The notes: a model not told the origin generated them from the letters alone. Shown: positions 5,501 to 36,866, counted from the first letter of the stretch. The stretch: DNA of 64,000 nucleotides from Candidatus Magasanikbacteria bacterium RIFCSPHIGHO2_01_FULL_33_34 (GCA_001782825.1 MFPS01000006.1:3351-67350), one strand, 5' to 3'. Numbers and translations: made by a program.

Positions 5501-5578
5501 AAAATTCAAAACAGTCTTATTAGAAAAAGACTTAAATCCATTAATTTCAAGAGATTTCAAATACATAACCTTAAACAT
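2519..5578 (-). CDS. smc: chromosome segregation protein SMC
   Basis: The N-terminal Walker A is GPNGSGKSN. Long coiled coils and a hinge are present. The C-terminus carries LSGGERTLTSIALICAIL...ILDEVEAALD (signature/Walker B/D-loop). Length is 1019 aa. Confidence 0.9.
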   Translation of the reverse strand: MFKVMYLKSLEINGFKSFSNKTVLNFAPSKDGYCSITGIVGPNGSGKSNVADAVRWVLGEQSMKLLRAKKSDDIIFGGSESKGKMSMASVTMIIDNQDGKLPIGYDELVITRRSYRTGDNEYLINGHKVRLLDLQLLLAKAQFGQGSYSVIGQGMIDKMLLQTPSERKDFFDEAFGIKEFQIKRHQSVLKLKHTYDNMEQAEALLNEVSPRLKSLSRQVKKLEERQEVEIELRELQEAYYLTLWNNNEEQLQILKKELLIIENDYNDNFKRLNLIQLELSNLAKESSREDEYKKLQTEYQAILQKKNNLEKEKATLSGRIQVEYNKEGMHNVGWIENKVTMLKSEQDKLQNEIQNIYNQILNLGEIQSKNRNNLEQYTIERAELKSRLSSLETQFTQTRSEQNFFVATGLKSIQAVLDNKQKFGKIFGALAQLGEVKEKYQIALDTAAGSHLSSLVVADDLVAEECIKFLRSEHLGVATFLPVNRIKPRFLPSNIESMLNMEGVHGLAINLINFSATLSNIFSYVLGSTLVVENIDIARKVGIGKIRMVTLEGDILDVGGSMKGGYRRHKAGGLSFVGNQALGSISNSIEDQTELIMEIKTKLDKVEIEYEKVNNDFISNRAEIEMEEKKKAYLLNQKIEKNQEIAGLEQELKLHTMSKEEYGSTLDTIKLEKHEVDKSIVLLDEDIKGVEAKIRSFHQDEEKKKKRIFELQDIMQNFQEKLNIIVGQKNEKQILIAKLDTRQEDLSNEVYQELHSSVESILSKGGMSIATDNIEDCVTKIQKLKYKLTLVGGIDEEVVVEYEEAKRRHEDLTVQLDDLSKAYDDLSKLVEELDNLMKVRRDKSFKKIKKEFQRYFKMLFDGGEADLVEIMGVEDENEASVEEGEILEEDKIKKRRKKILQGMEVIACPPGKKIKDIQALSGGERTLTSIALICAILHVNPPPFSILDEVEAALDEANTLRFNKILKELSEHSQFILITHNRATMHAASALYGVTMGGDGVSHLLSVKVNESSLDEKSQ

Positions 5579-5648
5579 GATTCATGAGACACGCATCATG
5601 ATTCATTTATAGCATAATGTAATGAATTATAACACGAACCAACTAACC

Positions 5649-5677
5649 TTGACAATTCTGCGTTTAGCATATATAAT
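5649..5677 (+). promoter_or_regulatory. consensus sigma70-type promoter TTGACA-N17-TATAAT, in the divergent smc/nrnA intergenic region
   Basis: ttgaca (5649-5654), a 17-nt spacer, then tataat (5672-5677). Inverted repeats at 5581-5600 and 5740-5770 flank it. Confidence 0.5.
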
Positions 5678-5779
5678 GCTATATCCCTCATTAAAAGAAA
5701 TTAAAATAAAAAGATAATTATTAATTAATATTCATTGAATCGTGTTACGTGTCTCGTGAATTATGAATAGTGTCGATGT

Positions 5780-6763
5780 ATGTACAGAATATCAAAACAA
5801 ATCCACAATAAAATTATTGATGCAAAACATATACTATTAATCCCTCACCAAAATCCAGATGGTGATGCTCTTGGTAGTCTTACAGCTTTCAAACAATATT
5901 TACATAAAATAGACAAACCACATACAGCTTTTTGTGTGACAGATGTACCCCAAAACTTTAGAGACCTGCACCATGTAGATAGTATTAGCTCCGACCAATC
6001 AATTTGGCAAAATCCCAATATAGATGTGGTTATAGTATTTGATTCAGGAGATCTACACTATGCAGGAATTGATAAATATATAGCAAAATTACCAAAACAA
6101 GTTTATATCATAAATATTGACCATCACGCAACCAATGAAAATTATGGGCATTTAAACATGGTCATTACCAGCAGTAGTTCAACTGCAGAAACTTTGTATA
6201 ACTTTTTCAAACACAATGATATTGAAATTGACAACAAAATGGCTACCTCTCTCCTAGCTGGCCTAGTAACAGATACAGACTTTTATACCAATGGCGCAAC
6301 ATCTCTATCATCTCTACAAATCACATCAAAACTAATCTCACTAGGTGGTGATTTTGCCTTAATCAAAGATATAATATTCAAAAATAAAACAATCAATGTT
6401 TTGAAATTGTGGGGAATTGTATTATCCAGACTAAAAAAACATCAAGAAATTGATCTAGTCTACACTTATCTAACCCAAGAAGATTTAGATACTTATGGCG
6501 TATCTGAATCAATTTCTGATGGGATTTCAAATTTTTTGAACAATCTAAACGATGGTGAAGTATGTCTACTATTCAAAGAACTGCCCGACAACAAAATAAA
6601 AGGAAGTTTCCGAACCACCAAAGACAATGTTGATGTATCAGCTATAGCCAAAGAACTTGGCGGAGGTGGCCACAAAAAAGCCGCTGGCTTTACCATCGAC
6701 GGACCGCTCAAAGAGGCTGCCAGAACTGTATTTGAACTCATAAAAAATAAAAATCTCAACTAA
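5780..6763 (+). CDS. nrnA: DHH/DHHA1 phosphoesterase, NrnA-like oligoribonuclease/pAp phosphatase
   Basis: Motifs present: PDGDALGS, DHHATNENYG (DHH) and GGGGHKKAAGF (DHHA1). Confidence 0.85.
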   Translation: MYRISKQIHNKIIDAKHILLIPHQNPDGDALGSLTAFKQYLHKIDKPHTAFCVTDVPQNFRDLHHVDSISSDQSIWQNPNIDVVIVFDSGDLHYAGIDKYIAKLPKQVYIINIDHHATNENYGHLNMVITSSSSTAETLYNFFKHNDIEIDNKMATSLLAGLVTDTDFYTNGATSLSSLQITSKLISLGGDFALIKDIIFKNKTINVLKLWGIVLSRLKKHQEIDLVYTYLTQEDLDTYGVSESISDGISNFLNNLNDGEVCLLFKELPDNKIKGSFRTTKDNVDVSAIAKELGGGGHKKAAGFTIDGPLKEAARTVFELIKNKNLN

Positions 6764-6841
6764 AAAATATCTTTACAAACTGGTATCTTACTGCTAAAAT
6801 AAAATTAATATGTAATAATTAATAGTATTATTTATAATCAA

Positions 6842-6944
6842 GCATTAGTTTTAATTATTTGTTTTTACGGATTTGATGTCCCAACAGACATCACCCTCGG
6901 AGCCAAAGCGAGAATGAGTAAAAACAAATAATTAAAACTAATGC
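6842..6944. ncRNA. structured repeat element copy A: perfect 27-bp closing inverted repeat around a core of about 50 nt with two small hairpins (candidate small RNA or structured motif); second copy at about 52346-52425
   Basis: Left arm gcattagttttaattatttgtttttac (6842-6868) is the exact reverse complement of the right arm at 6918-6944. The core ggatttgatgtcccaacagacatcaccctcggagccaaagcgagaatgag contains a 7-bp hairpin tgatgtc/gacatca. The core is about 90% identical to 52361-52415. Confidence 0.45.
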
Positions 6945-7002
6945 GATCATGATTGAAAATATAAACAATATCAGTATAACTTATAACTAACAATAAAATA
7001 TT

Positions 7003-7602
7003 ATGCAAACAACAGAAATAAAAAACCAATACCTTATCCCTACTGTTATTGAAAAAACCAGTTATGGTGAAAGAGCGTATGATATATATTCTCGTTTACT
7101 CAAAGATAGAATTATTTTTCTTGGTAGCGCCATTGACGACGCTGTTGCCAATACTGTCATTGCTCAATTCTTGTTTTTGGAAAATCAAGATCCAGACAAA
7201 GATATAAAATTATATATCAATTCACCTGGAGGTTCAGTCACTTCTGGTATGGCCATATATGACACCATGCAATATATAAAACCAAATGTATCAACTATAT
7301 GTATTGGCATGGCCGCCAGTATGGCTTCAGTCCTTTTGACTGCCGGTGAAAAAGGCAAAAGATTTTGTCTACCAAATAGTGAAGTAATGATTCACCAAGT
7401 AATGGGCGGAACTGAAGGCCAAGCTTCCGACATAAAAATCCATGCCGAACGAATACTAAAAATGAAAGACAAACTTAATTCTATTTTAGCAAACCATACT
7501 GGACAAGATATAAAAACCATAGAAAAAGATTCTGATCGCGATAACTTTATGACAGCCGAAGAAGCGGTAAAATATGGATTGGTAGATAAAGTGATTAAAT
7601 AG
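7003..7602 (+). CDS. clpP: ATP-dependent Clp protease proteolytic subunit
   Basis: 199 aa. Contains the GMAASMAS active-site Ser region and the His/Asp context, with full-length similarity to ClpP. Confidence 0.95.
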
Positions 7603-7642
7603 CAGAGTAAGCAGAATAGGCAGATTAAGCAAATAAAATCAA

Positions 7643-7672
7643 AGACCCTCGACTAAGTCGAAGGTCTTTTAA
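7643..7672 (+). terminator. rho-independent terminator of clpP
   Basis: Stem agaccctcgac/gtcgaaggtct with loop taa, followed by tttt. Confidence 0.6.
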
Positions 7673-7679
7673 AATTTTT

Positions 7680-8090
7680 ATAGGAATGTTCTTCTAAAAT
7701 GCTGTACCCAAGAAGGTGAGTCGTAGGAATAGACGAGCCGTAGCCTGTGCAACCCTATAACGCACCCCCATGCTTGTCGTGGATACAGAACGTTATTTAT
7801 TTTTTCAAAATATTCAACGTTCTATATCCTCGTAAATCCAACCTTATGGTTGGGTAGTGGATACAGAGAAATACTTATTTTATGATAGAAACCATTAAAC
7901 AAATATTTCTCTAAATCCAAATTATATAGTTTTAAAAAGGTGTCTGGTAAGACACGGACATAAGGTTAGTTGTGGGGGGCAACTCCTTGAATATCCGTGT
8001 CTACCAGACAGAATCGAGTTAATTACTCAACACGACAAATGAATATACCATAAAAAATTCAACTTGTCAATAGCACCCTGTGGAAAAAAA
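7680..8090. ncRNA. GC-elevated, highly structured intergenic block between convergent genes; candidate non-coding RNA(s), family not recognised
   Basis: There is no ORF of 60 aa or more here. Local GC is clearly above the roughly 30% background. Nested helices include ggatacagaacgtt/aacgttctatatcc, ccaacc/ggttgg, and a 16-bp helix gtctggtaagacacgg/ccgtgtctaccagac enclosing a G-run. The direct repeat gtggatacaga occurs twice. Confidence 0.35.
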
Positions 8091-8113
8091 TAAAAAATAG
8101 GCTAAAATTAGCC
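8084..8113 (-). terminator. rho-independent terminator of the VanW-like gene
   Basis: Hairpin ggctaa/ttagcc, followed on the minus strand by tatttttt atttttt. Confidence 0.55.
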
Positions 8114-8144
8114 ATTTTTATAATAAAGTTATTTTGTAATGTCT

Positions 8145-10133
8145 TTATTCTACAATTATAAGTGAGTTTCCATCCCCATCATCTTCCAAAGGACACTCTG
8201 CCAAAGGCAAACCACTTTCATCAAAACAATTTTCAATCTTTTCTTCAACTCCTACCAAACAAATCTCTGGCAAAGGTCTATAATAACTCTCAAAAACTGT
8301 TTCTTCTACTTCTCCACTTGATAATTTTCTAACATACTTGAAACTTGCTTCTGCACCCTTAAACGCATGCTGACATTTTTCCGTACCTACAGGCAAACTG
8401 GTTGTTTCAATATATTGAGTTGGTCCAGTTGGTATCCACTTTTCTACCACTGGAGACTCATAATAACCACTCCGACCATCACTTGTTCCCCACAAAGTAA
8501 AGTATAATTTTTGTTCTTCCAAATCCATATAAGTCTGGATCAATATATGATTGCCAGTATCATTTTTAAATCTAAAATCAGGCGCTGGATCATAAAGCGT
8601 CGCATCAGTACCCGGCAAACCATTTTGTAAATCATTATAATAATTAACTACCAAAGAATGATTTCTTCTCTCTACAATAGGCATAGCAGAATTCATCGCC
8701 ATTCTAAACAATGTAGTTCCTATTTGACACAAACCACCACCAATCTCTGGCTTAATCTCGTCCCCCTTAATAACTAATTCTGGAAAATAACCGCCTTCTA
8801 TTGTATATGGTTTTGTATATTTAATTGCAGAAAACTCTTCATTTGGTTTCAACAATATCCCATTCAACTTGTCTACACCATTTTTTATATTTTTTATTCT
8901 ATTTTGTGGACTACCTGAAAAATCTGAAATGCCCACTCCCAAAATTTCTGTAATACCTAGATTATTTGCCTCACCAGTATTTACATTTGGCTCACTTTTT
9001 TTAGTTATCACTTGGACAATTTTAGCTATACCTTCATTATGAACACTCCTATCAATTATCGCTTGATTAATTGCCTCATAGGTCTTATCAATATCCAATT
9101 CAACTCCTGCGCGAGATCCTTGAAATTCCACTACCTTACCATCATCATCTACTTGAAACTTAGCATCTCTGGCATCTATATTAATTTTTGGTGAAACCAA
9201 TGTTTCTAAATAATCAACCACTAATTTTTTATTCAATCCAAAAGCCAAGTTTTTTTCTGATACATTGTGTACTTCAAGCCAATCAGAAATTTTACCAATA
9301 TCTATCAACCAATCATAGGCTACTTTAGTTTCTGGATTTTTGTATGTAATAGAAATATTACCATTATCAAACACACTTTCAAGTCTATTGGTTATATTAT
9401 TGACATCATTTTCTAAAACTGTCGGCAAAACTTCTTTATTATTTATATTTACATAAGGTACTTCCAATACTGACCATGCAAACTTCAACTTTGCAACTGT
9501 TTCTTCATACAAATATACATTTCCAACTGATGAGCTAGTTACTTCATAATCCAATGGATTTAAATTATTTATTTTTACAGAAGCATCCATTGGCATTACT
9601 TCATATTGGGCTAACTTTTCTGATATTTCATAAATAAGTTTATCCTTGTCTATAATTATATTTTTAAGTTTGATAGACGGTTTAGAAAAACGCATTTTTA
9701 CAAAATCAATTGACCGCAATAACAATCCATTGTCTTTTTTATAATTCATTATTCTTTCTACCTCACTATCAATATCAATATACATAAACTCAATAGCATT
9801 GTCTTCTGTAACAATAACTGGTTGTAACAAAAATTCTTTTTGCTGACCACTAAAATTAAAAGTAAAATGAAAACCTTCGCTTAATAATTTGTCACTCATT
9901 GAATGCAAAAAATTTTTAAGCTGACTCTCAGTCATACCACCAACAGAAACATTGCCAATATGCAATCCAGGAGCAACTTTATTGTTATAATCTTTTGCTT
10001 GTATCAAAATAACTGCCAACAAAAAACCAAACAATAAAAGCACTACTCCCAAAAATATAAAAACACGATGCCATTTAAATACCGCCCGCTCTTTCATAAA
10101 TTTTTTATCAAACAAATCAGCCATAATTAACAT
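8145..10133 (-). CDS. VanW family protein: N-terminal TM anchor, repeated extracytoplasmic domains, VanW domain, and a Cys-rich acidic C-terminal tail
   Basis: The TM segment is VFIFLGVVLLLFGFLLAVILI. The VanW-type core is GDEIKPEIGGGLCQIGTTLFRMAMNSAMPIVERRNHS. The C-terminal 60 aa contain 5 Cys and a DDGDGN motif. Confidence 0.75.
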   Translation of the reverse strand: MLIMADLFDKKFMKERAVFKWHRVFIFLGVVLLLFGFLLAVILIQAKDYNNKVAPGLHIGNVSVGGMTESQLKNFLHSMSDKLLSEGFHFTFNFSGQQKEFLLQPVIVTEDNAIEFMYIDIDSEVERIMNYKKDNGLLLRSIDFVKMRFSKPSIKLKNIIIDKDKLIYEISEKLAQYEVMPMDASVKINNLNPLDYEVTSSSVGNVYLYEETVAKLKFAWSVLEVPYVNINNKEVLPTVLENDVNNITNRLESVFDNGNISITYKNPETKVAYDWLIDIGKISDWLEVHNVSEKNLAFGLNKKLVVDYLETLVSPKINIDARDAKFQVDDDGKVVEFQGSRAGVELDIDKTYEAINQAIIDRSVHNEGIAKIVQVITKKSEPNVNTGEANNLGITEILGVGISDFSGSPQNRIKNIKNGVDKLNGILLKPNEEFSAIKYTKPYTIEGGYFPELVIKGDEIKPEIGGGLCQIGTTLFRMAMNSAMPIVERRNHSLVVNYYNDLQNGLPGTDATLYDPAPDFRFKNDTGNHILIQTYMDLEEQKLYFTLWGTSDGRSGYYESPVVEKWIPTGPTQYIETTSLPVGTEKCQHAFKGAEASFKYVRKLSSGEVEETVFESYYRPLPEICLVGVEEKIENCFDESGLPLAECPLEDDGDGNSLIIVE

Positions 10134-10284
10134 TTAAACATGAAAACATATAAACATTTCCGACCATTCTGTGGTACATTCCCTAGACTAAGTCATGAGG
10201 ATCTATTATACCACCATCGGATCTATAATCGGGTTTGGGATGACACATGTTTGTATGTTTATATGTTTAAATGTTTGTATGTTA
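10129..10284. repeat. inverted arms of an octamer tandem repeat (AAACATAY)n / (RTATGTTT)n flanking a 70-bp core that carries an extended -10 for the VanW-like gene
   Basis: Left arm aacatttaaacatgaaaacatataaacattt lies at 10129-10159. Right arm acatgtttgtatgtttatatgtttaaatgtttgtatgtta lies at 10245-10284. The core reads TGGTATAAT on the minus strand (ccaccatcgg... gives ggtggtataat when reverse-complemented). Confidence 0.6.
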
Positions 10285-10782
10285 ATTCTCCACCACTTTT
10301 ATTTTAATCTTTGAATCCATTTTTTTCTTTGGGATTAAAATAGATAAAATTCCATTTTCATATTTTGCTTTGGCACTATCCCCTTTTACATCTACTGGCA
10401 AAACTACTGTTCTAGAAAATTTACCCCAAAAACATTCTTGATGAATAAAATTACCGTCCCCAATTTCATCTTTTGGCATAACTCGTTCGCCTTTTATAGT
10501 AAGCAAATCATTGTGAACATAAACTTCAATCCTAGAGGCATTGGCCCCAGCCATGGTTGATAATACTACAATATTTTTGTCATTATTGATGACATCAATC
10601 GCCAGTTGACCTTCTTGGTGATCTTCATGCCAATCATCTATAGTAGACTTTTCTGATAACACGGCTGACGCAAACATTGGTCTGTCTTTGGAAATATTTT
10701 TGGGATCAAAAACATAATCCCCTCCTGCGGACTTCAAAATCATCTCAAATACATCCCCATCTTTTTTATCTTGATTATACAT
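10282..10782 (-). CDS. Hsp20/alpha-crystallin family small heat-shock protein
   Basis: 166 aa. The alpha-crystallin domain region (IEVYVHNDLLTIKGER...YENGILSILIPKK) matches the IbpA/Hsp20 pattern. Confidence 0.85.
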   Translation of the reverse strand: MYNQDKKDGDVFEMILKSAGGDYVFDPKNISKDRPMFASAVLSEKSTIDDWHEDHQEGQLAIDVINNDKNIVVLSTMAGANASRIEVYVHNDLLTIKGERVMPKDEIGDGNFIHQECFWGKFSRTVVLPVDVKGDSAKAKYENGILSILIPKKKMDSKIKIKVVEN

Positions 10783-10847
10783 ATTTTTCTACTTTTATTT
10801 ATATATAATACCATAAATATTCAAACATATAAACATTTATCTTTATA

Positions 10848-10876
10848 TATTGACTTTCAACGAAAAATATAGTAAT
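10848..10876 (+). promoter_or_regulatory. candidate promoter TTGACT-N17-TAATAT upstream of the tRNA at 10964
   Basis: ttgact (10848-10853), a 17-nt spacer, then taatat (10871-10876), about 88 bp upstream of the tRNA. Confidence 0.4.
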
Positions 10877-10963
10877 ATCTGTCTATAAATACACCCTATT
10901 TTAACTACCAATTACATAAAATAGTTGCATCATGCTGTGTATATCATGCATCATGAATTTCAT

Positions 10964-11050
10964 GGAGAGATGGCCGAGTGGTTTAAGGCAGCAGTTTACT
11001 AAACTGCCGGGCTCGCAAGGGCCTCTAGAGTTCGAATCTCTATCTCTCCG
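10964..11050 (+). tRNA. class-II tRNA (long variable arm, G73; Ser-type) with anticodon loop TTACTAA, so the apparent anticodon is ACU; no encoded CCA
   Basis: Acceptor GGAGAGA/TCTCTCC (7 bp), a 3-bp D stem GCC/GGC, anticodon stem GCAGT/ACTGC, long variable arm GGGCTCGCAAGGGCC, and T arm TAGAG-TTCGAAT-CTCTA. Confidence 0.75.
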
Positions 11051-11095
11051 CTCTCACCCGCCGAAGCTTTAGCGAAGGCAGGCAACCAACAATGT

Positions 11096-11437
11096 ATGTT
11101 AATCAAAAAATCAGAAGCAAGAAAAAAACAAGCCTCCCCAGATTGTGCTGTTTGGGAGTATGAATATCCCAGCAAAAATTTTAGTTTTGCAACTTCGTTT
11201 ATTAACGGTCGCTATCCACAAGAACAAAAAGCAAGCAATACAAAATGCGAAGAAGTATATTATGTTATTTCCGGATCTGGCAAAGTCCATTCGGACAAAG
11301 GCGATTTTGTTATAAACCCTGGTGATTTATACTTTTTTGAAAAGGGAGAGATTTATTGGGTTGAAGGCAAACAATTATTGCTCTCTATAGTCAACGCTCC
11401 AGCTTGGACTCCGGAGCAGCACAAAATAATTGACTAA
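11096..11437 (+). CDS. cupin-domain protein
   Basis: 113 aa. The small beta-barrel pattern (VYYVISGSGKVHSDKGDFVINPGDLYFFEKGEIYWVEG) is typical of cupin_2. Confidence 0.55.
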   Translation: MLIKKSEARKKQASPDCAVWEYEYPSKNFSFATSFINGRYPQEQKASNTKCEEVYYVISGSGKVHSDKGDFVINPGDLYFFEKGEIYWVEGKQLLLSIVNAPAWTPEQHKIID

Positions 11438-35849: not shown

Positions 35850-35956
35850 GTTTATCTAATTTAGACCTGAACCATTATCACTTTAGATTGTTCTTTATTA
35901 TTATACCAAAAAATACTAAAACAAAATAGAGATAATCGTGGATAAGTGTTTGCATA

Positions 35957-35988
35957 AAAACATACAAACATATAAACATATAAACACA
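35957..35988. repeat. octamer tandem repeat (AAACATAY)n, in the promoter region of the 35196-35849 gene
   Basis: aaaaacatacaaacatataaacatataaacac. On the minus strand the array ends 45 bp upstream of an extended -10 TGGTATAAT (plus-strand 35904-35912). Confidence 0.6.
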
Positions 35989-36005: not shown

Positions 36006-36866
36006 CTACAGGATAAACCCGCATAATTTTTTCCATTGTTCTAGACTTAATTCTTGTGCCCGGACGGTTTCTTTGAGATATGATTTTAAAAGCGCTTTCT
36101 TTATTTTTTCTCCATCAATTTTAAGGTTCACTGAAAGATTACGCCATAACTGTTTTCGTTTATTAGCAAACCCAGCCTTTACAATCTCAAAAAATTTTTT
36201 GTCAAAAGATGTTTGTATGTTTGTATGTTTGTATATTTGTATGCTCAACACGGCTGAATCAACTTTTGGCTCTGGCCAAAAATTTCCCCTAGAAACTCTA
36301 AGTACAATTTTTGGTTCCCCATAATATTGTACAGACACTGCCAAGAGACTCATATTACCCGGTTTTTCACATATACGTTCTGCCACTTCTTTTTGCACCA
36401 TCACTACTATTTTTTCCGGTTTATTTTCAAGCTCTAATAATGTCCTCAAAATATGCGAAGTGATTTGATAAGGTAAATTTGCAATTACTTTATACTTTCC
36501 TTTGAATTCAAACTCTTTATTTTTTATATTGGTAATAGCATTACCCCAAATTATGTGCAAATTAGAATATTCTTGCAATTTCTTATTCCAATAATCTTCT
36601 AGCTTTTTCTCAATTTCATAGGCAATTACTTTTTGTGCGCTATCAACTAATGCCAATGTAAGTACACCAAACCCTGGTCCTATCTCTAGTATATTATCTT
36701 TTTTATTTACTTCTGCAGTTTCAAGCATTTTTTGAATCGGATCAAAATTAACTAAATAATTCTGACCATATTTTTTTGATGGAGACAATCCATATTCTTT
36801 ACACAATTCCTTGATTTTTGTAGGTGTTAATACAGACATACAAATTATTTTAAAAACCATCTCCAT
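36006..36866 (-). CDS. rsmA: 16S rRNA (adenine1518/1519-N6)-dimethyltransferase
   Basis: KKYGQNYL, the SAM-binding motif ILEIGPGFGVLT, and the KsgA C-terminus AQELSLEQWKKL. An in-frame octamer repeat lies at 36209-36244. Confidence 0.9.
   Translation of the reverse strand: MEMVFKIICMSVLTPTKIKELCKEYGLSPSKKYGQNYLVNFDPIQKMLETAEVNKKDNILEIGPGFGVLTLALVDSAQKVIAYEIEKKLEDYWNKKLQEYSNLHIIWGNAITNIKNKEFEFKGKYKVIANLPYQITSHILRTLLELENKPEKIVVMVQKEVAERICEKPGNMSLLAVSVQYYGEPKIVLRVSRGNFWPEPKVDSAVLSIQIYKHTNIQTSFDKKFFEIVKAGFANKRKQLWRNLSVNLKIDGEKIKKALLKSYLKETVRAQELSLEQWKKLCGFIL

What the first reader, a model, noticed from the sequence alone, without database searches (positions are those of the whole stretch)
10129..10840. 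Octamer tandem-repeat family (AAACATAY)n positioned about 1-50 bp upstream of TGGTAT(A/T)AT extended -10 elements
Arms of (AAACATAY)n or its complement occur at 10129-10159, 10245-10284, 10821-10836, 35957-35988 and 36209-36244. At three loci (the VanW gene, hsp20, and the acidic-protein/giant operon) an array lies upstream of a minus-strand extended -10 TGGTATAAT/TGGTATTAT: it abuts the -10 in the hsp20 promoter (1-bp gap) and ends 43 bp and 45 bp upstream at the VanW and acidic-protein loci, consistent with a shared operator, UP-element or DNA-bending module. Two of the regulated genes are stress or envelope-related. The inverted arms around 10160-10245 also resemble a MITE-like unit whose core carries the promoter.
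Basis: seen in the sequence. Interest (0 to 1): 0.5.

Follow-up and report, generated by a model that had tools for sequence, protein, structure and literature searches.

The report
Foldback-element arms, not promoter operators
The repeated eight-base motifs are real, but they are most likely the complementary arms of small hairpin-forming insertions between genes of a Candidate Phyla Radiation bacterium, the same kind of arms that elsewhere enclose a '23S rRNA intervening-sequence protein' gene, and not a shared promoter control site.

Summary
The five AAACATNN arrays exist at the stated places and are far beyond chance: 10 matches to a three-unit pattern against 0.09 expected. The window comes from a Candidatus Magasanikbacteria (CPR) genome.

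The operator/UP-element reading is not supported.
- Only 3 of 13 TGGTATWAT boxes in the window have an array nearby.
- Orthologous promoters in relatives keep the -10 box but lack the arrays.
- One array lies inside the rsmA coding sequence.

In three relatives hsp20 and vanW overlap or lie within 18 bp. The window has a 163-bp palindromic insert there, and its closest relative has a different insert with heptamer arms.

Across many CPR phyla, arrays occur as (AAACATNN)n ... (NNATGTTT)n pairs that fill the space from a stop codon to the next start codon. In three loci such arms (AAACAT, or the close variant TAACAT in L133) enclose a PF05635 (23S_rRNA_IVP) gene. Of 74 metagenomic PF05635 loci, 53 have flanking inverted repeats, and 43 of these are built of tandem 7- or 8-mers (controls 4-5 of 105). 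The Coxiella 23S rRNA intervening sequence has the same build and is cut by RNase III.

Best reading: ORF-less, IVS-like foldback elements. Their function is inferred, not shown.

The parts
10255..10287 (-). 5' arm (in the sense of the minus-strand genes) of foldback element A: TAACATAC AAACATTT AAACATAT AAACATAC AAACAT. It contains the hsp20 stop codon (10282-10284).
   Evidence: (I11).
10158..10254 (-). Loop/core of element A. It carries a consensus extended -10 box, TGGTATAAT (10205-10213, minus strand), pointing at vanW. It has no ORF and no homology to the core of the L128 insert.
10125..10157 (-). 3' arm of element A: ATGTTTAT ATGTTTTC ATGTTTAA ATGTTAAT T. Its last unit supplies the first in-frame ATG of vanW (10133). 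The alternative start ATGGCT (10124-10122) follows directly.
10815..10836 (-). Solo array (ATGTTTAT ATGTTTGA ATATTT on the minus strand) abutting the hsp20 extended -10 box TGGTATTAT (10805-10813). It is the remnant 3' arm of a foldback that is complete in relative L128 and absent in L129-L132.
36210..36244 (-). Array inside the rsmA coding sequence (codons for S-IQIYKHTNIQT). It forms the 5' arm of pair C and is conserved at the same codons in five other Magasanikbacteria species.
   Evidence: (I5).
35952..35986 (-). 3' arm of pair C, starting 19 nt after the rsmA stop codon (36006-36008). It is complementary to the rsmA-internal array, including the flanking GCAT/ATGC. It is present only in this lineage, so it is probably a derived inverted copy.
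   Evidence: (I5).
35900..35945 (-). The conserved promoter of the acidic-protein/giant-gene operon: TTATCCACG box (35937-35945) about 31 nt upstream of TGGTATAAT (35900-35908). This part, not the array, is what relatives conserve.
5576..5765 (.). A further foldback of the same kind with heptamer arms: CATGATT CATGAGA CACGCAT CATGATT CA (5576-5605) and TGAATCG TGTTACG TGTCTCG TGAATTA TG (5736-5765), 25 of 30 complementary. It brackets the ancestral back-to-back smc/DHH promoters. L128 has octamer arms (GGTGATAA-like) at the same place, and L129, L130 and L132 have none.

Best explanation
The AAACATNN arrays are the inverted-repeat arms of small, ORF-less foldback elements of the intervening-sequence (IVS) type. 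Each arm is a short tandem array of 7- or 8-nt units, and the two arms are complementary. The same arm design elsewhere encloses a PF05635 '23S rRNA-intervening sequence protein' gene.

Shown:
- The arms are real, complementary and non-random.
- Element A is an insertion at the hsp20-vanW junction that relatives lack.
- The same arm type flanks PF05635 genes in other CPR genomes.
- Tandem-7/8-mer inverted arms are a general property of PF05635 cassettes.
- AAACAT pairs always read AAACAT first and ATGTTT second, and in tandem-gene contexts they fill the gap from the stop codon to the next start codon.

Inferred:
- On a read-through hsp20-vanW transcript the arms pair into a stem of about 33 bp, AU-rich. 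This stem brings the hsp20 stop codon and the vanW start codon together and hides the start codon.
- It is the kind of duplex that RNase III cuts in rRNA intervening sequences.
- vanW would then be expressed from the extended -10 promoter carried in the loop, or through ribosomes that open the stem base when they terminate at the hsp20 stop.
- The AAACAT/ATGTTT unit recurs because the 5' arm supplies TAA/TGA stop codons and the 3' arm supplies ATG codons in all three frames. That would let the element sit between tightly coupled genes at little cost.
- New arms arise at the DNA level by templated inverted duplication of an existing array, as suggested by the rsmA pair.

The arrays are not a promoter operator.
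For: - Non-randomness.
- Complementary arms: (I5, I11).
- Predicted RNA stems use the arms: locus 1 -46.9 kcal/mol (z = -2.75), locus 2 -77.2 kcal/mol (z = -5.0).
- Insertion polymorphism: the hsp20-vanW gap is overlapping, 3 bp and 18 bp in L129, L130/131 and L132. It is about 150 bp in the window and 217 bp in L128, where the arms are heptamers (AGAATGN/NCATTCT) and the core is unrelated.
- The hsp20-upstream array occurs only in the window and L128.
- CPR-wide family: about 21 of 119 capped genome hits are Patescibacteria of many phyla. They show the stop-(AAACATNN)n-spacer-(NNATGTTT)n-ATG architecture.
- Polarity: 8 of 8 pairs detected with up to 1 mismatch per unit, and 4 of 4 strict pairs, read AAACAT first.
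- PF05635 genes lie between AAACAT/ATGTTT-type arms in L047, L115 and L133 (TAACAT variant in L133). In L126, a relative of the window, one lies between GAGATAG/CTATCTC arms at the DUF4015-rsmA junction.
- Of 74 distinct metagenomic PF05635 loci, 53 have flanking inverted repeats. In 43 both arms have tandem period 7 (34 loci) or 8 (9 loci). Shifted controls give 5 and 4 of 105.
- Published precedent: the Coxiella 23S IVS has an S23p ORF, a 28-bp terminal inverted-repeat stem and tandem heptamers (GACAGAT, 3-4 copies). RNase III cuts at the first repeat (PMC4990558).
Against: - No PF05635 gene, transposase or recombinase was found in the window, so any mobilising function would act in trans or be absent.
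- No target-site duplication is visible, and the cores of different copies are unrelated, unlike classical MITEs.
- Mismatches between arms of PF05635 cassettes show no G-U bias on the sense strand (48 G-U against 59 A-C). Complementarity therefore seems to be maintained by DNA-level copying and not by selection on an RNA helix.
- At smc/DHH the two arms lie on divergent transcripts and flank ancestral promoters (ATTGTCAAG-N14-TGTTATAAT, conserved in relatives). They cannot pair in mRNA and did not arrive as one contiguous insertion.
- The rsmA-internal array is conserved in six species, while its partner exists in only one.
- No transcript or cleavage data exist.
Confidence: 0.55

Rival explanations
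1. The octamer arrays are a shared cis-regulatory DNA module (an operator for a repressor or activator that binds tandem 8-bp units, an UP-like element, or a bending element) acting on extended -10 promoters of stress and envelope genes.
For: - Three arrays lie 1-48 bp upstream of TGGTATWAT boxes.
- The hsp20 array abuts the -10 box, in 8-nt register with it, in both the window and L128.
- Arrays of 7-8-bp units are known operator designs (MetJ metboxes, omega-protein heptads; from my own knowledge).
Against: - 10 of 13 TGGTATWAT boxes have no array.
- Orientation is inconsistent.
- Arrays are absent from orthologous promoters that keep the -10 box.
- The vanW promoter itself sits inside an insertion that relatives lack.
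- One array is coding.
- In other CPR genomes the arrays sit between the stop and start codons of tandem genes or flank PF05635 genes.
Confidence: 0.07
2. Each array acts alone in the mRNA at a gene boundary. (NNAUGUUU)n in 5' leaders would act as a start-codon-rich, U-rich ribosome landing or re-initiation pad in an organism with little Shine-Dalgarno use. (AAACAUNN)n after stop codons would act as an all-frame stop or spacer. The inverted-repeat relation would then be a by-product of the two orientations.
For: - 3' arrays end at, or supply, the start codon, often in 8-nt register (L047, L060, L077, L115, L117, L133, window).
- 5' arrays start 0-10 nt after the stop codon.
- At divergent smc/DHH both mRNAs carry the same array in their leaders. 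In L128 that array is Shine-Dalgarno-like, (GGTGATAA)n.
- No G-U bias in the arms.
Against: - Arm units are highly diverse in PF05635 cassettes (AGGCTGT, TCAGCTA, GCAGTGG and others), and most carry no ATG or stop logic.
- The L128 hsp20-vanW arms have the CAT/ATG arrangement reversed.
- In L081 and L118 the true start codon is not in register.
- Arrays also occur inside coding regions.
Confidence: 0.15
3. The pairs are bidirectional intrinsic transcription terminators or processing hairpins native to CPR. The A-rich 5' array and the U-rich 3' array would play the part of the A-tract and U-tract around an inner G+C-rich hairpin.
For: - The AAACAT-first polarity gives an A-rich 5' flank and a U-rich 3' flank on both strands.
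- Short-spacer copies have G+C-rich inner hairpins (L077, L060, L008).
- In L076 and L118 an array directly adjoins a classical terminator.
- In the window a 9-mer array after the clpP stop codon is followed by a terminator hairpin.
Against: - The consensus scan finds no terminator-like site in 9800-11200.
- Element A has a 97-nt loop with a promoter, and pair C spans 223 nt of coding sequence.
- Most PF05635 cassette arms are G-rich/C-rich, not A/U-rich.
- Relatives manage without any element at the same junctions.
Confidence: 0.1
4. The inverted arrays are recombination sites of an invertible promoter switch (an inverton) that flips the promoter-bearing core on and off.
For: Inverted repeats of 33 nt flank a 97-bp segment that holds a consensus extended -10 promoter.
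Against: - No recombinase was found among about 30 window ORFs screened.
- Three assemblies from other samples show one orientation at locus 2.
- Pair C would invert part of an essential-type gene.
- Tandem-unit arms are not typical of known invertons.
Confidence: 0.04
5. The arrays are functionless simple-sequence repeats produced by replication slippage in an AT-rich genome with weak repair.
For: - Related genomes carry many other short 7-9-mer arrays with different units, including in variable loops of RsmA.
- The units are imperfect.
Against: - Slippage alone does not produce complementary partner arrays, a fixed polarity (8 of 8), placement exactly at stop and start codons, the same unit across distant CPR phyla, or the association with PF05635 genes.
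- No copy-number variation among three assemblies.
Confidence: 0.09

Closest known systems
Intervening sequences (IVS) of bacterial 23S/16S rRNA genes that carry an S23p / PF05635 ORF (Coxiella, Leptospira, Brucella; also CPR rRNA insertions)
   Same: Terminal inverted repeats form a stem of about 28-35 bp around a loop with or without a small ORF. In Coxiella the arm is made of tandem heptamers (GACAGAT, 3-4 copies) and RNase III cuts at the first repeat (PMC4990558). PF05635 genes in CPR and other metagenomes are flanked by the same tandem-7/8-mer inverted arms, in three loci with AAACAT-type units (TAACAT in L133).
   Different: The window's elements lie between or inside protein-coding genes, not in rRNA helices. 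They carry no PF05635 ORF, their units are octamers, and excision by RNase III is untested here.
Correia repeat-enclosed elements (CREE) of Neisseria and similar bacterial MITEs (from my own knowledge)
   Same: Elements of about 100-160 bp with terminal inverted repeats lie in intergenic regions, show presence/absence between relatives, can carry outward promoters, are co-transcribed with neighbours, and form hairpins processed by RNase III.
   Different: Correia elements have a conserved full-length sequence in hundreds of copies, a TA target duplication and non-repetitive inverted repeats. Here the cores are unrelated, no target duplication is seen, and the arms are tandem octamers or heptamers whose unit differs between loci and genomes.
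REP / REPIN sequences mobilised by RAYT (Y1) transposases (from my own knowledge)
   Same: Short extragenic repeats occur as singlets or inverted doublets just after stop codons and form hairpins. A PF01797 Y1 transposase gene lies next to vanW in relative L128.
   Different: REPs are individually palindromic, not tandem-unit arrays. No RAYT was found in the window, and no link between the L128 gene and the arrays was tested.
Foldback (FB) transposons of Drosophila (from my own knowledge)
   Same: Long terminal inverted repeats are themselves built of short tandem repeats. Most copies have arms only and a minority carry internal ORFs.
   Different: These are eukaryotic, kilobase-scale elements with 10-31-bp units and a different, partly unknown, mobilising machinery. 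The resemblance is an analogy only.
Tandem-unit operators of ribbon-helix-helix repressors (MetJ 8-bp metboxes; omega protein 7-bp heptads) (from my own knowledge)
   Same: Arrays of 2-10 contiguous 7-8-bp units in direct or inverted orientation near promoters.
   Different: Those arrays overlap the regulated promoters and are conserved with them. Here the arrays are not conserved with the orthologous promoters and mostly sit at stop/start boundaries or around PF05635 genes.

Membership tests
IVS-type foldback element (rRNA intervening sequence / PF05635 cassette) | Terminal inverted repeats able to form a stem of roughly 25 bp or more | tested here: met
   Arms of 33 nt (88% complementary) and 35 nt (89% complementary). 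The minimum-free-energy folds pair the arms.
IVS-type foldback element (rRNA intervening sequence / PF05635 cassette) | Arms composed of short tandem (7-8 nt) units | tested here: met
   Octamer arms in the window. 43 of 74 PF05635 loci have period-7/8 arms against 4 of 105 controls. Coxiella heptamers are described in PMC4990558.
IVS-type foldback element (rRNA intervening sequence / PF05635 cassette) | Encloses a PF05635 (S23p/IVP) ORF | tested here: not met
   tblastn with three IVP proteins finds nothing in the window. The condition is met only in related loci with AAACAT-type arms: L047, L115 and L133 (TAACAT variant). ORF-less IVSs are known, so this makes the window copies non-autonomous at best.
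IVS-type foldback element (rRNA intervening sequence / PF05635 cassette) | Inserted in an rRNA helix | tested here: not met
   The window holds no rRNA gene. The elements lie at hsp20-vanW, tRNA-hsp20, rsmA and smc-DHH.
IVS-type foldback element (rRNA intervening sequence / PF05635 cassette) | Excised from the transcript by RNase III | not testable with these tools
   No transcript data are available. Only stem length and energy were assessed.
Bacterial MITE (e.g. Correia/CREE) | Presence/absence polymorphism at orthologous sites | tested here: met
   Insert at hsp20-vanW in the window and L128, none in L129-L132. The same pattern holds at smc-DHH.
Bacterial MITE (e.g. Correia/CREE) | Many near-identical full-length copies, core included | tested here: not met
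   Cores are unrelated: element A core against rsmA coding sequence against the L128 core. Only 64 kb of the genome was available.
Bacterial MITE (e.g. Correia/CREE) | Target-site duplication flanking the inverted repeats | tested here: not met
   The flanks of 10125-10287 are ...GGAG | element | ATGGCT..., with no direct repeat.
   The -10 box (and the TTATCCACG box) is conserved without arrays in L120, L121/122, L123 and L125. The arrays are also absent upstream of hsp20 in L129-L132, where L129 and L132 keep a TGNTATAAT box and L130/131 only GCTATAAT.
   Gaps of 1, 31-33 and 48 nt with mixed orientation. 10 of 13 TGGTATWAT boxes lack arrays.
Phase-variable simple-sequence repeat | Copy-number variation of identical units between strains | tested here: not met
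   Units differ at the NN positions. Three assemblies from other samples are identical at locus 2. Locus 1 was not sampled.
TIGR (tandem interspaced guide RNA) arrays of CPR and phages | 36-nt units with two spacers of about 9 nt each, next to a Tas (Nop-domain) gene | tested here: not met
   The period here is 8 nt with 2 variable bases, and no adjacent candidate gene is present. The TIGR features are taken from PMC12045711.

The most novel reading that the evidence does not exclude
Inverted arrays of tandem 7-8-nt units may define a widespread and essentially undescribed class of prokaryotic foldback cassettes. The PF05635 four-helix-bundle ring protein would be the cargo and possibly the arm-binding factor, with one repeat unit per subunit of the pentamer, as in TRAP-like ring proteins. 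ORF-less copies, as in this window, would be non-autonomous derivatives. They would spread or regenerate by templated inverted duplication and colonise stop/start junctions of CPR operons. There the AAACAT/ATGTTT unit would be favoured because it restores stop and start codons in every frame.
Probability: 0.2. Interest if true: 0.75.

Novelty: new variant of a known kind. Interest (0 to 1): 0.5.

Why it matters
- For genome annotation, this removes a tempting but wrong regulon call (hsp20, vanW, giant-gene operon). It also shows that much of the intergenic DNA in these very small CPR genomes is made of self-complementary insertions.
- More broadly, the PF05635 '23S rRNA intervening-sequence protein' family is abundant and has no known function. 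The finding that most of its genes are bracketed by inverted arrays of tandem heptamers or octamers gives a concrete, testable handle on how these cassettes form, move and are processed. The same holds for the ORF-less copies that sit exactly between the stop and start codons of coupled genes.
- It also bears on how operon expression is kept intact, or rewired by loop-borne promoters, after such insertions.

Tried and rejected
- Rfam: the gathering-threshold scan of the whole window finds only three tRNA-Ser genes. The permissive scan of 6700-11000 gives only implausible sub-threshold hits.
- TIGR arrays: different period and architecture.
- Phase-variable simple-sequence repeat: three assemblies are identical.
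- PF05635 gene in the window: none.
- Recombinase, transposase or RNase III among about 30 window ORFs: none found. The rest of the genome could not be read.
- Homology between the cores of the window and L128 inserts: none convincing.
- G-U against A-C mismatch test for RNA-level selection on PF05635 cassette arms: no bias, 48 against 59. The RNA-stem function therefore remains inferred.
- Literature searches for the octamer, for CPR intergenic repeats and for PF05635 flanking repeats found only the Coxiella heptamer description.
- A 24-codon ORF starting at the in-register ATG after the locus-2 arm is not conserved as an ORF in relatives. Instead, the region is the conserved promoter.
Full report
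**Observation.** A three-unit pattern, AAACATNNAAACATNNAAACAT with up to 2 mismatches, matches 10 times, only in these arrays, against 0.09 +/- 0.29 in shuffles. They are the only period-8 arrays in the window. Two inverted pairs are present: 10125-10157 / 10255-10287 (33 nt, 88% complementary) and 35952-35986 / 36210-36244 (35 nt, 89%). Three other metagenome assemblies are 100% identical across 3855 bp that include both locus-2 arrays.

**Context.** Protein names given by sources for the closest RsmA and VanW homologues place the window in Candidatus Magasanikbacteria, a CPR/Patescibacteria lineage. The genes around the arrays are on the minus strand.
- vanW is 8145-10133 (PF04294).
- hsp20 is 10282-10782 (PF00011).
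- rsmA is 36006-36866 (PF00398), preceded by DUF4015 and followed by a 217-aa acidic protein and a 3226-aa protein.
- Array 10247-10284 covers the hsp20 stop codon.
- Array 10128-10157 covers the first in-frame ATG of vanW.
- Array 36209-36238 is inside rsmA and encodes IQIYKHTNIQT.
- Array 35958-35987 follows the rsmA stop codon.

**Test of the promoter-module idea.** The three extended -10 boxes exist (10205-10213, 10805-10813, 35900-35908). The window, however, has 13 TGGTATWAT boxes, and ten of them have no array. The gaps are 1, 31-33 and 48 nt, and the orientation of the array relative to the promoter differs among the three.

Comparative data are decisive. Upstream of the acidic-protein gene, six relatives conserve a TTATCCACG box, and where the contig reaches it, TGGTATAAT (GATATAAT in L120) about 31 nt downstream. 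None has an array there. Upstream of hsp20, L129 and L132 keep a TGNTATAAT box, L130/131 has only a plain GCTATAAT, and all four lack the array. Only L128, the closest relative, has one, and there it is a complete foldback (CAATCATTAA...TTAATGATTG).

In L129, L130/131 and L132, hsp20 and vanW overlap or lie 3 and 18 bp apart. The 'vanW promoter' therefore lies inside an insertion. That insertion is the 163-bp palindromic unit 10125-10287. L128 has a 217-bp insert at the same junction, but with heptamer arms (AGAATGN / NCATTCT) and an unrelated core.

**The family.** A capped scan of one genome per species for three AAACATNN units returned 119 loci. About 21 are Patescibacteria from many phyla: Magasanik-, Doudna-, Kuenen-, Falkow-, Morani-, Portnoy-, Dojka- and Saccharibacteria.

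Read in the direction of the local genes, these loci share one layout:
1. a stop codon;
2. (AAACATNN)n starting 0-10 nt after it;
3. a spacer;
4. (NNATGTTT)n;
5. the ATG of the next gene.

The spacer can be a short G+C-rich hairpin, a classical terminator or a small ORF. The ATG is often in 8-nt register with the array, or is supplied by its last unit. Every pair reads AAACAT first and ATGTTT second: 8 of 8 with relaxed detection and 4 of 4 with strict detection. Outside coding regions almost every 5'-arm unit carries TAA or TGA. The coding array in rsmA uses NN = AC, which avoids stop codons.

**Link to intervening-sequence cassettes.**
- In L047 (Kuenenbacteria) and L115 (Saccharibacteria) the spacer between the AAACAT and ATGTTT arms is a gene of the PF05635 23S_rRNA_IVP family. 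This was confirmed above the Pfam cut-off for L047, L126, L019 and L077.
- In L126, a relative of the window, a PF05635 gene sits between DUF4015 and rsmA, flanked by GAGATAG / CTATCTC heptamer arms. Other relatives and the window have no gene there.
- A metagenome scan with an alignment of these proteins gave 74 distinct loci. Of these, 53 have an inverted repeat flanking the ORF. In 43 both arms are tandem arrays of period 7 (34 loci) or 8 (9 loci). Controls shifted by 550 nt give 5 and 4 of 105.
- Unit sequences are very diverse. The closest homologue of the L047 protein (L133, 68% identity) has TAACATNT arms that fill the gap from a stop codon to the start codon of a pilin-like gene.
- The published Coxiella 23S rRNA IVS has the same design: an S23p ORF, a 28-bp terminal inverted-repeat stem and three to four tandem heptamers, with RNase III cutting at the first repeat (PMC4990558).

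I found no paper that states this arm design as a general property of PF05635 cassettes, or that describes ORF-less copies between CPR genes. The searched library is incomplete, so this absence is weak evidence.

**Mechanism: shown and inferred.** What is shown: complementary tandem-unit arms, the insertion polymorphism, fixed polarity, boundary placement, and the association with PF05635 genes.

What is inferred:
- On a read-through hsp20-vanW RNA the arms form a stem of about 33 bp (minimum free energy -46.9 kcal/mol, z = -2.75). This stem brings the hsp20 stop codon next to the vanW start codon and occludes the start codon.
- vanW would then be expressed from the loop-borne TGGTATAAT box, or after terminating ribosomes open the stem base.
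- The stem is of the size RNase III cuts in IVSs.
- At rsmA the arms can pair across 223 nt (-77.2 kcal/mol, z = -5.0). Here the internal array is ancient: it sits at the same codons in L121/122, L123, L125, L126 and L127, with variation mainly at the NN positions. The downstream arm is lineage-specific and copies even the flanking GCAT. This points to arm formation by inverted duplication.

**Evidence that limits the RNA-stem reading.**
- Arm mismatches in PF05635 cassettes show no G-U excess (48 against 59).
- The window holds a further foldback with heptamer arms (5576-5605 / 5736-5765). Its arms lie in the leaders of the divergent smc and DHH genes and bracket promoters that are conserved in relatives lacking arms (ATTGTCAAG-N14-TGTTATAAT).
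- L128 has different, Shine-Dalgarno-like octamer arms at the same place. Those arms cannot pair in mRNA and did not arrive as one block.
- Arm complementarity therefore seems to be produced at the DNA level. Whether it serves the host is open.

**Rivals.**
- An operator or UP element: about 0.07.
- Independent boundary arrays acting in translation: about 0.15.
- CPR-type bidirectional terminators: about 0.10.
- Invertible promoter: about 0.04.
- Functionless slippage products: about 0.09.

Each is set out in the Rival explanations section with its evidence and what would refute it.

**Verdict.** The main interpretation is not supported, and the MITE-like side remark is. The arrays are best described as arms of ORF-less, IVS-like foldback elements, a new variant of a known kind. 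The general tandem-7/8-mer arm design of PF05635 cassettes appears to be described so far only for Coxiella, and it is the most useful by-product of this analysis.

Noticed in passing
window 6842-6944 and 52333-52437: Two copies of a 51-nt G+C-richer core (CGGATTTGATGYC..CACCCTCGGAGCC..GCGAGAATGAG, 90% identical). Each is enclosed by different AT-rich inverted arms, one between DHH and clpP and one after gene 51002-52294. No Rfam match. This may be a small structured RNA or another foldback family with a conserved core.
   Followed up: partly
window 52545-52663: A long hairpin (41-nt arms, 76% complementary, G+C-rich) followed by a run of T. It is a candidate small RNA or strong terminator in a 500-bp intergenic region.
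   Followed up: no
window 7601-7669: Directly after the clpP stop codon lies a 9-mer tandem array (AGCAGAGTA AGCAGAATA GGCAGATTA AGCAAATAA). It is followed by a classical terminator hairpin (7641-7669) and has no inverted partner.
   Followed up: partly
window 7700-8010: A G+C-rich, hairpin-rich stretch with no ORF lies between the convergent clpP and vanW genes, with two copies of a GTGGATACAGA-containing palindrome. In relative L128 the same interval holds a PF01797 Y1 transposase (IS200/RAYT-like) gene.
   Followed up: no
window 35937-35945 (minus strand): TTATCCACG matches 8 of 9 positions of the DnaA-box consensus. It is conserved about 31 nt upstream of the TGGTATAAT box of the acidic-protein/giant-gene operon in the relatives examined (TTATCCACC in L126). 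It is not enriched in the window overall: 3 matches against 2.5 expected.
   Followed up: partly
L121 5317-5342, L123 5312-5343, L127 1110-1144 (rsmA genes of relatives): A variable surface loop of RsmA is encoded by tandem heptamers in relatives (TTACGAG x3, AATTCAG x4.5, ATCACAT x4). In L127 that array shares sequence with the 5' arm of the hairpin downstream of the gene. Short arrays therefore also colonise tolerant coding loops.
   Followed up: partly
L126 1270-1730: In a relative of the window, a PF05635 gene with GAGATAG/CTATCTC heptamer arms is inserted between DUF4015 and rsmA. The 5' arm supplies the last codons and the stop codon of DUF4015.
   Followed up: yes
L129 8400-8490 compared with window 5560-5790: In L129 the -10 boxes of smc and DHH lie 8-9 nt from the start codons, which implies leaderless or near-leaderless mRNAs. 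In the window both genes have gained array-containing leaders of about 45-110 nt.
   Followed up: partly
PF05635 loci L133-L212: The arms have an intrinsic polarity: the first arm has G > C in 42 of 53 cassettes. Because the pair is palindromic, this holds on both strands. AAACAT-type arms belong to the minority polarity.
   Followed up: partly
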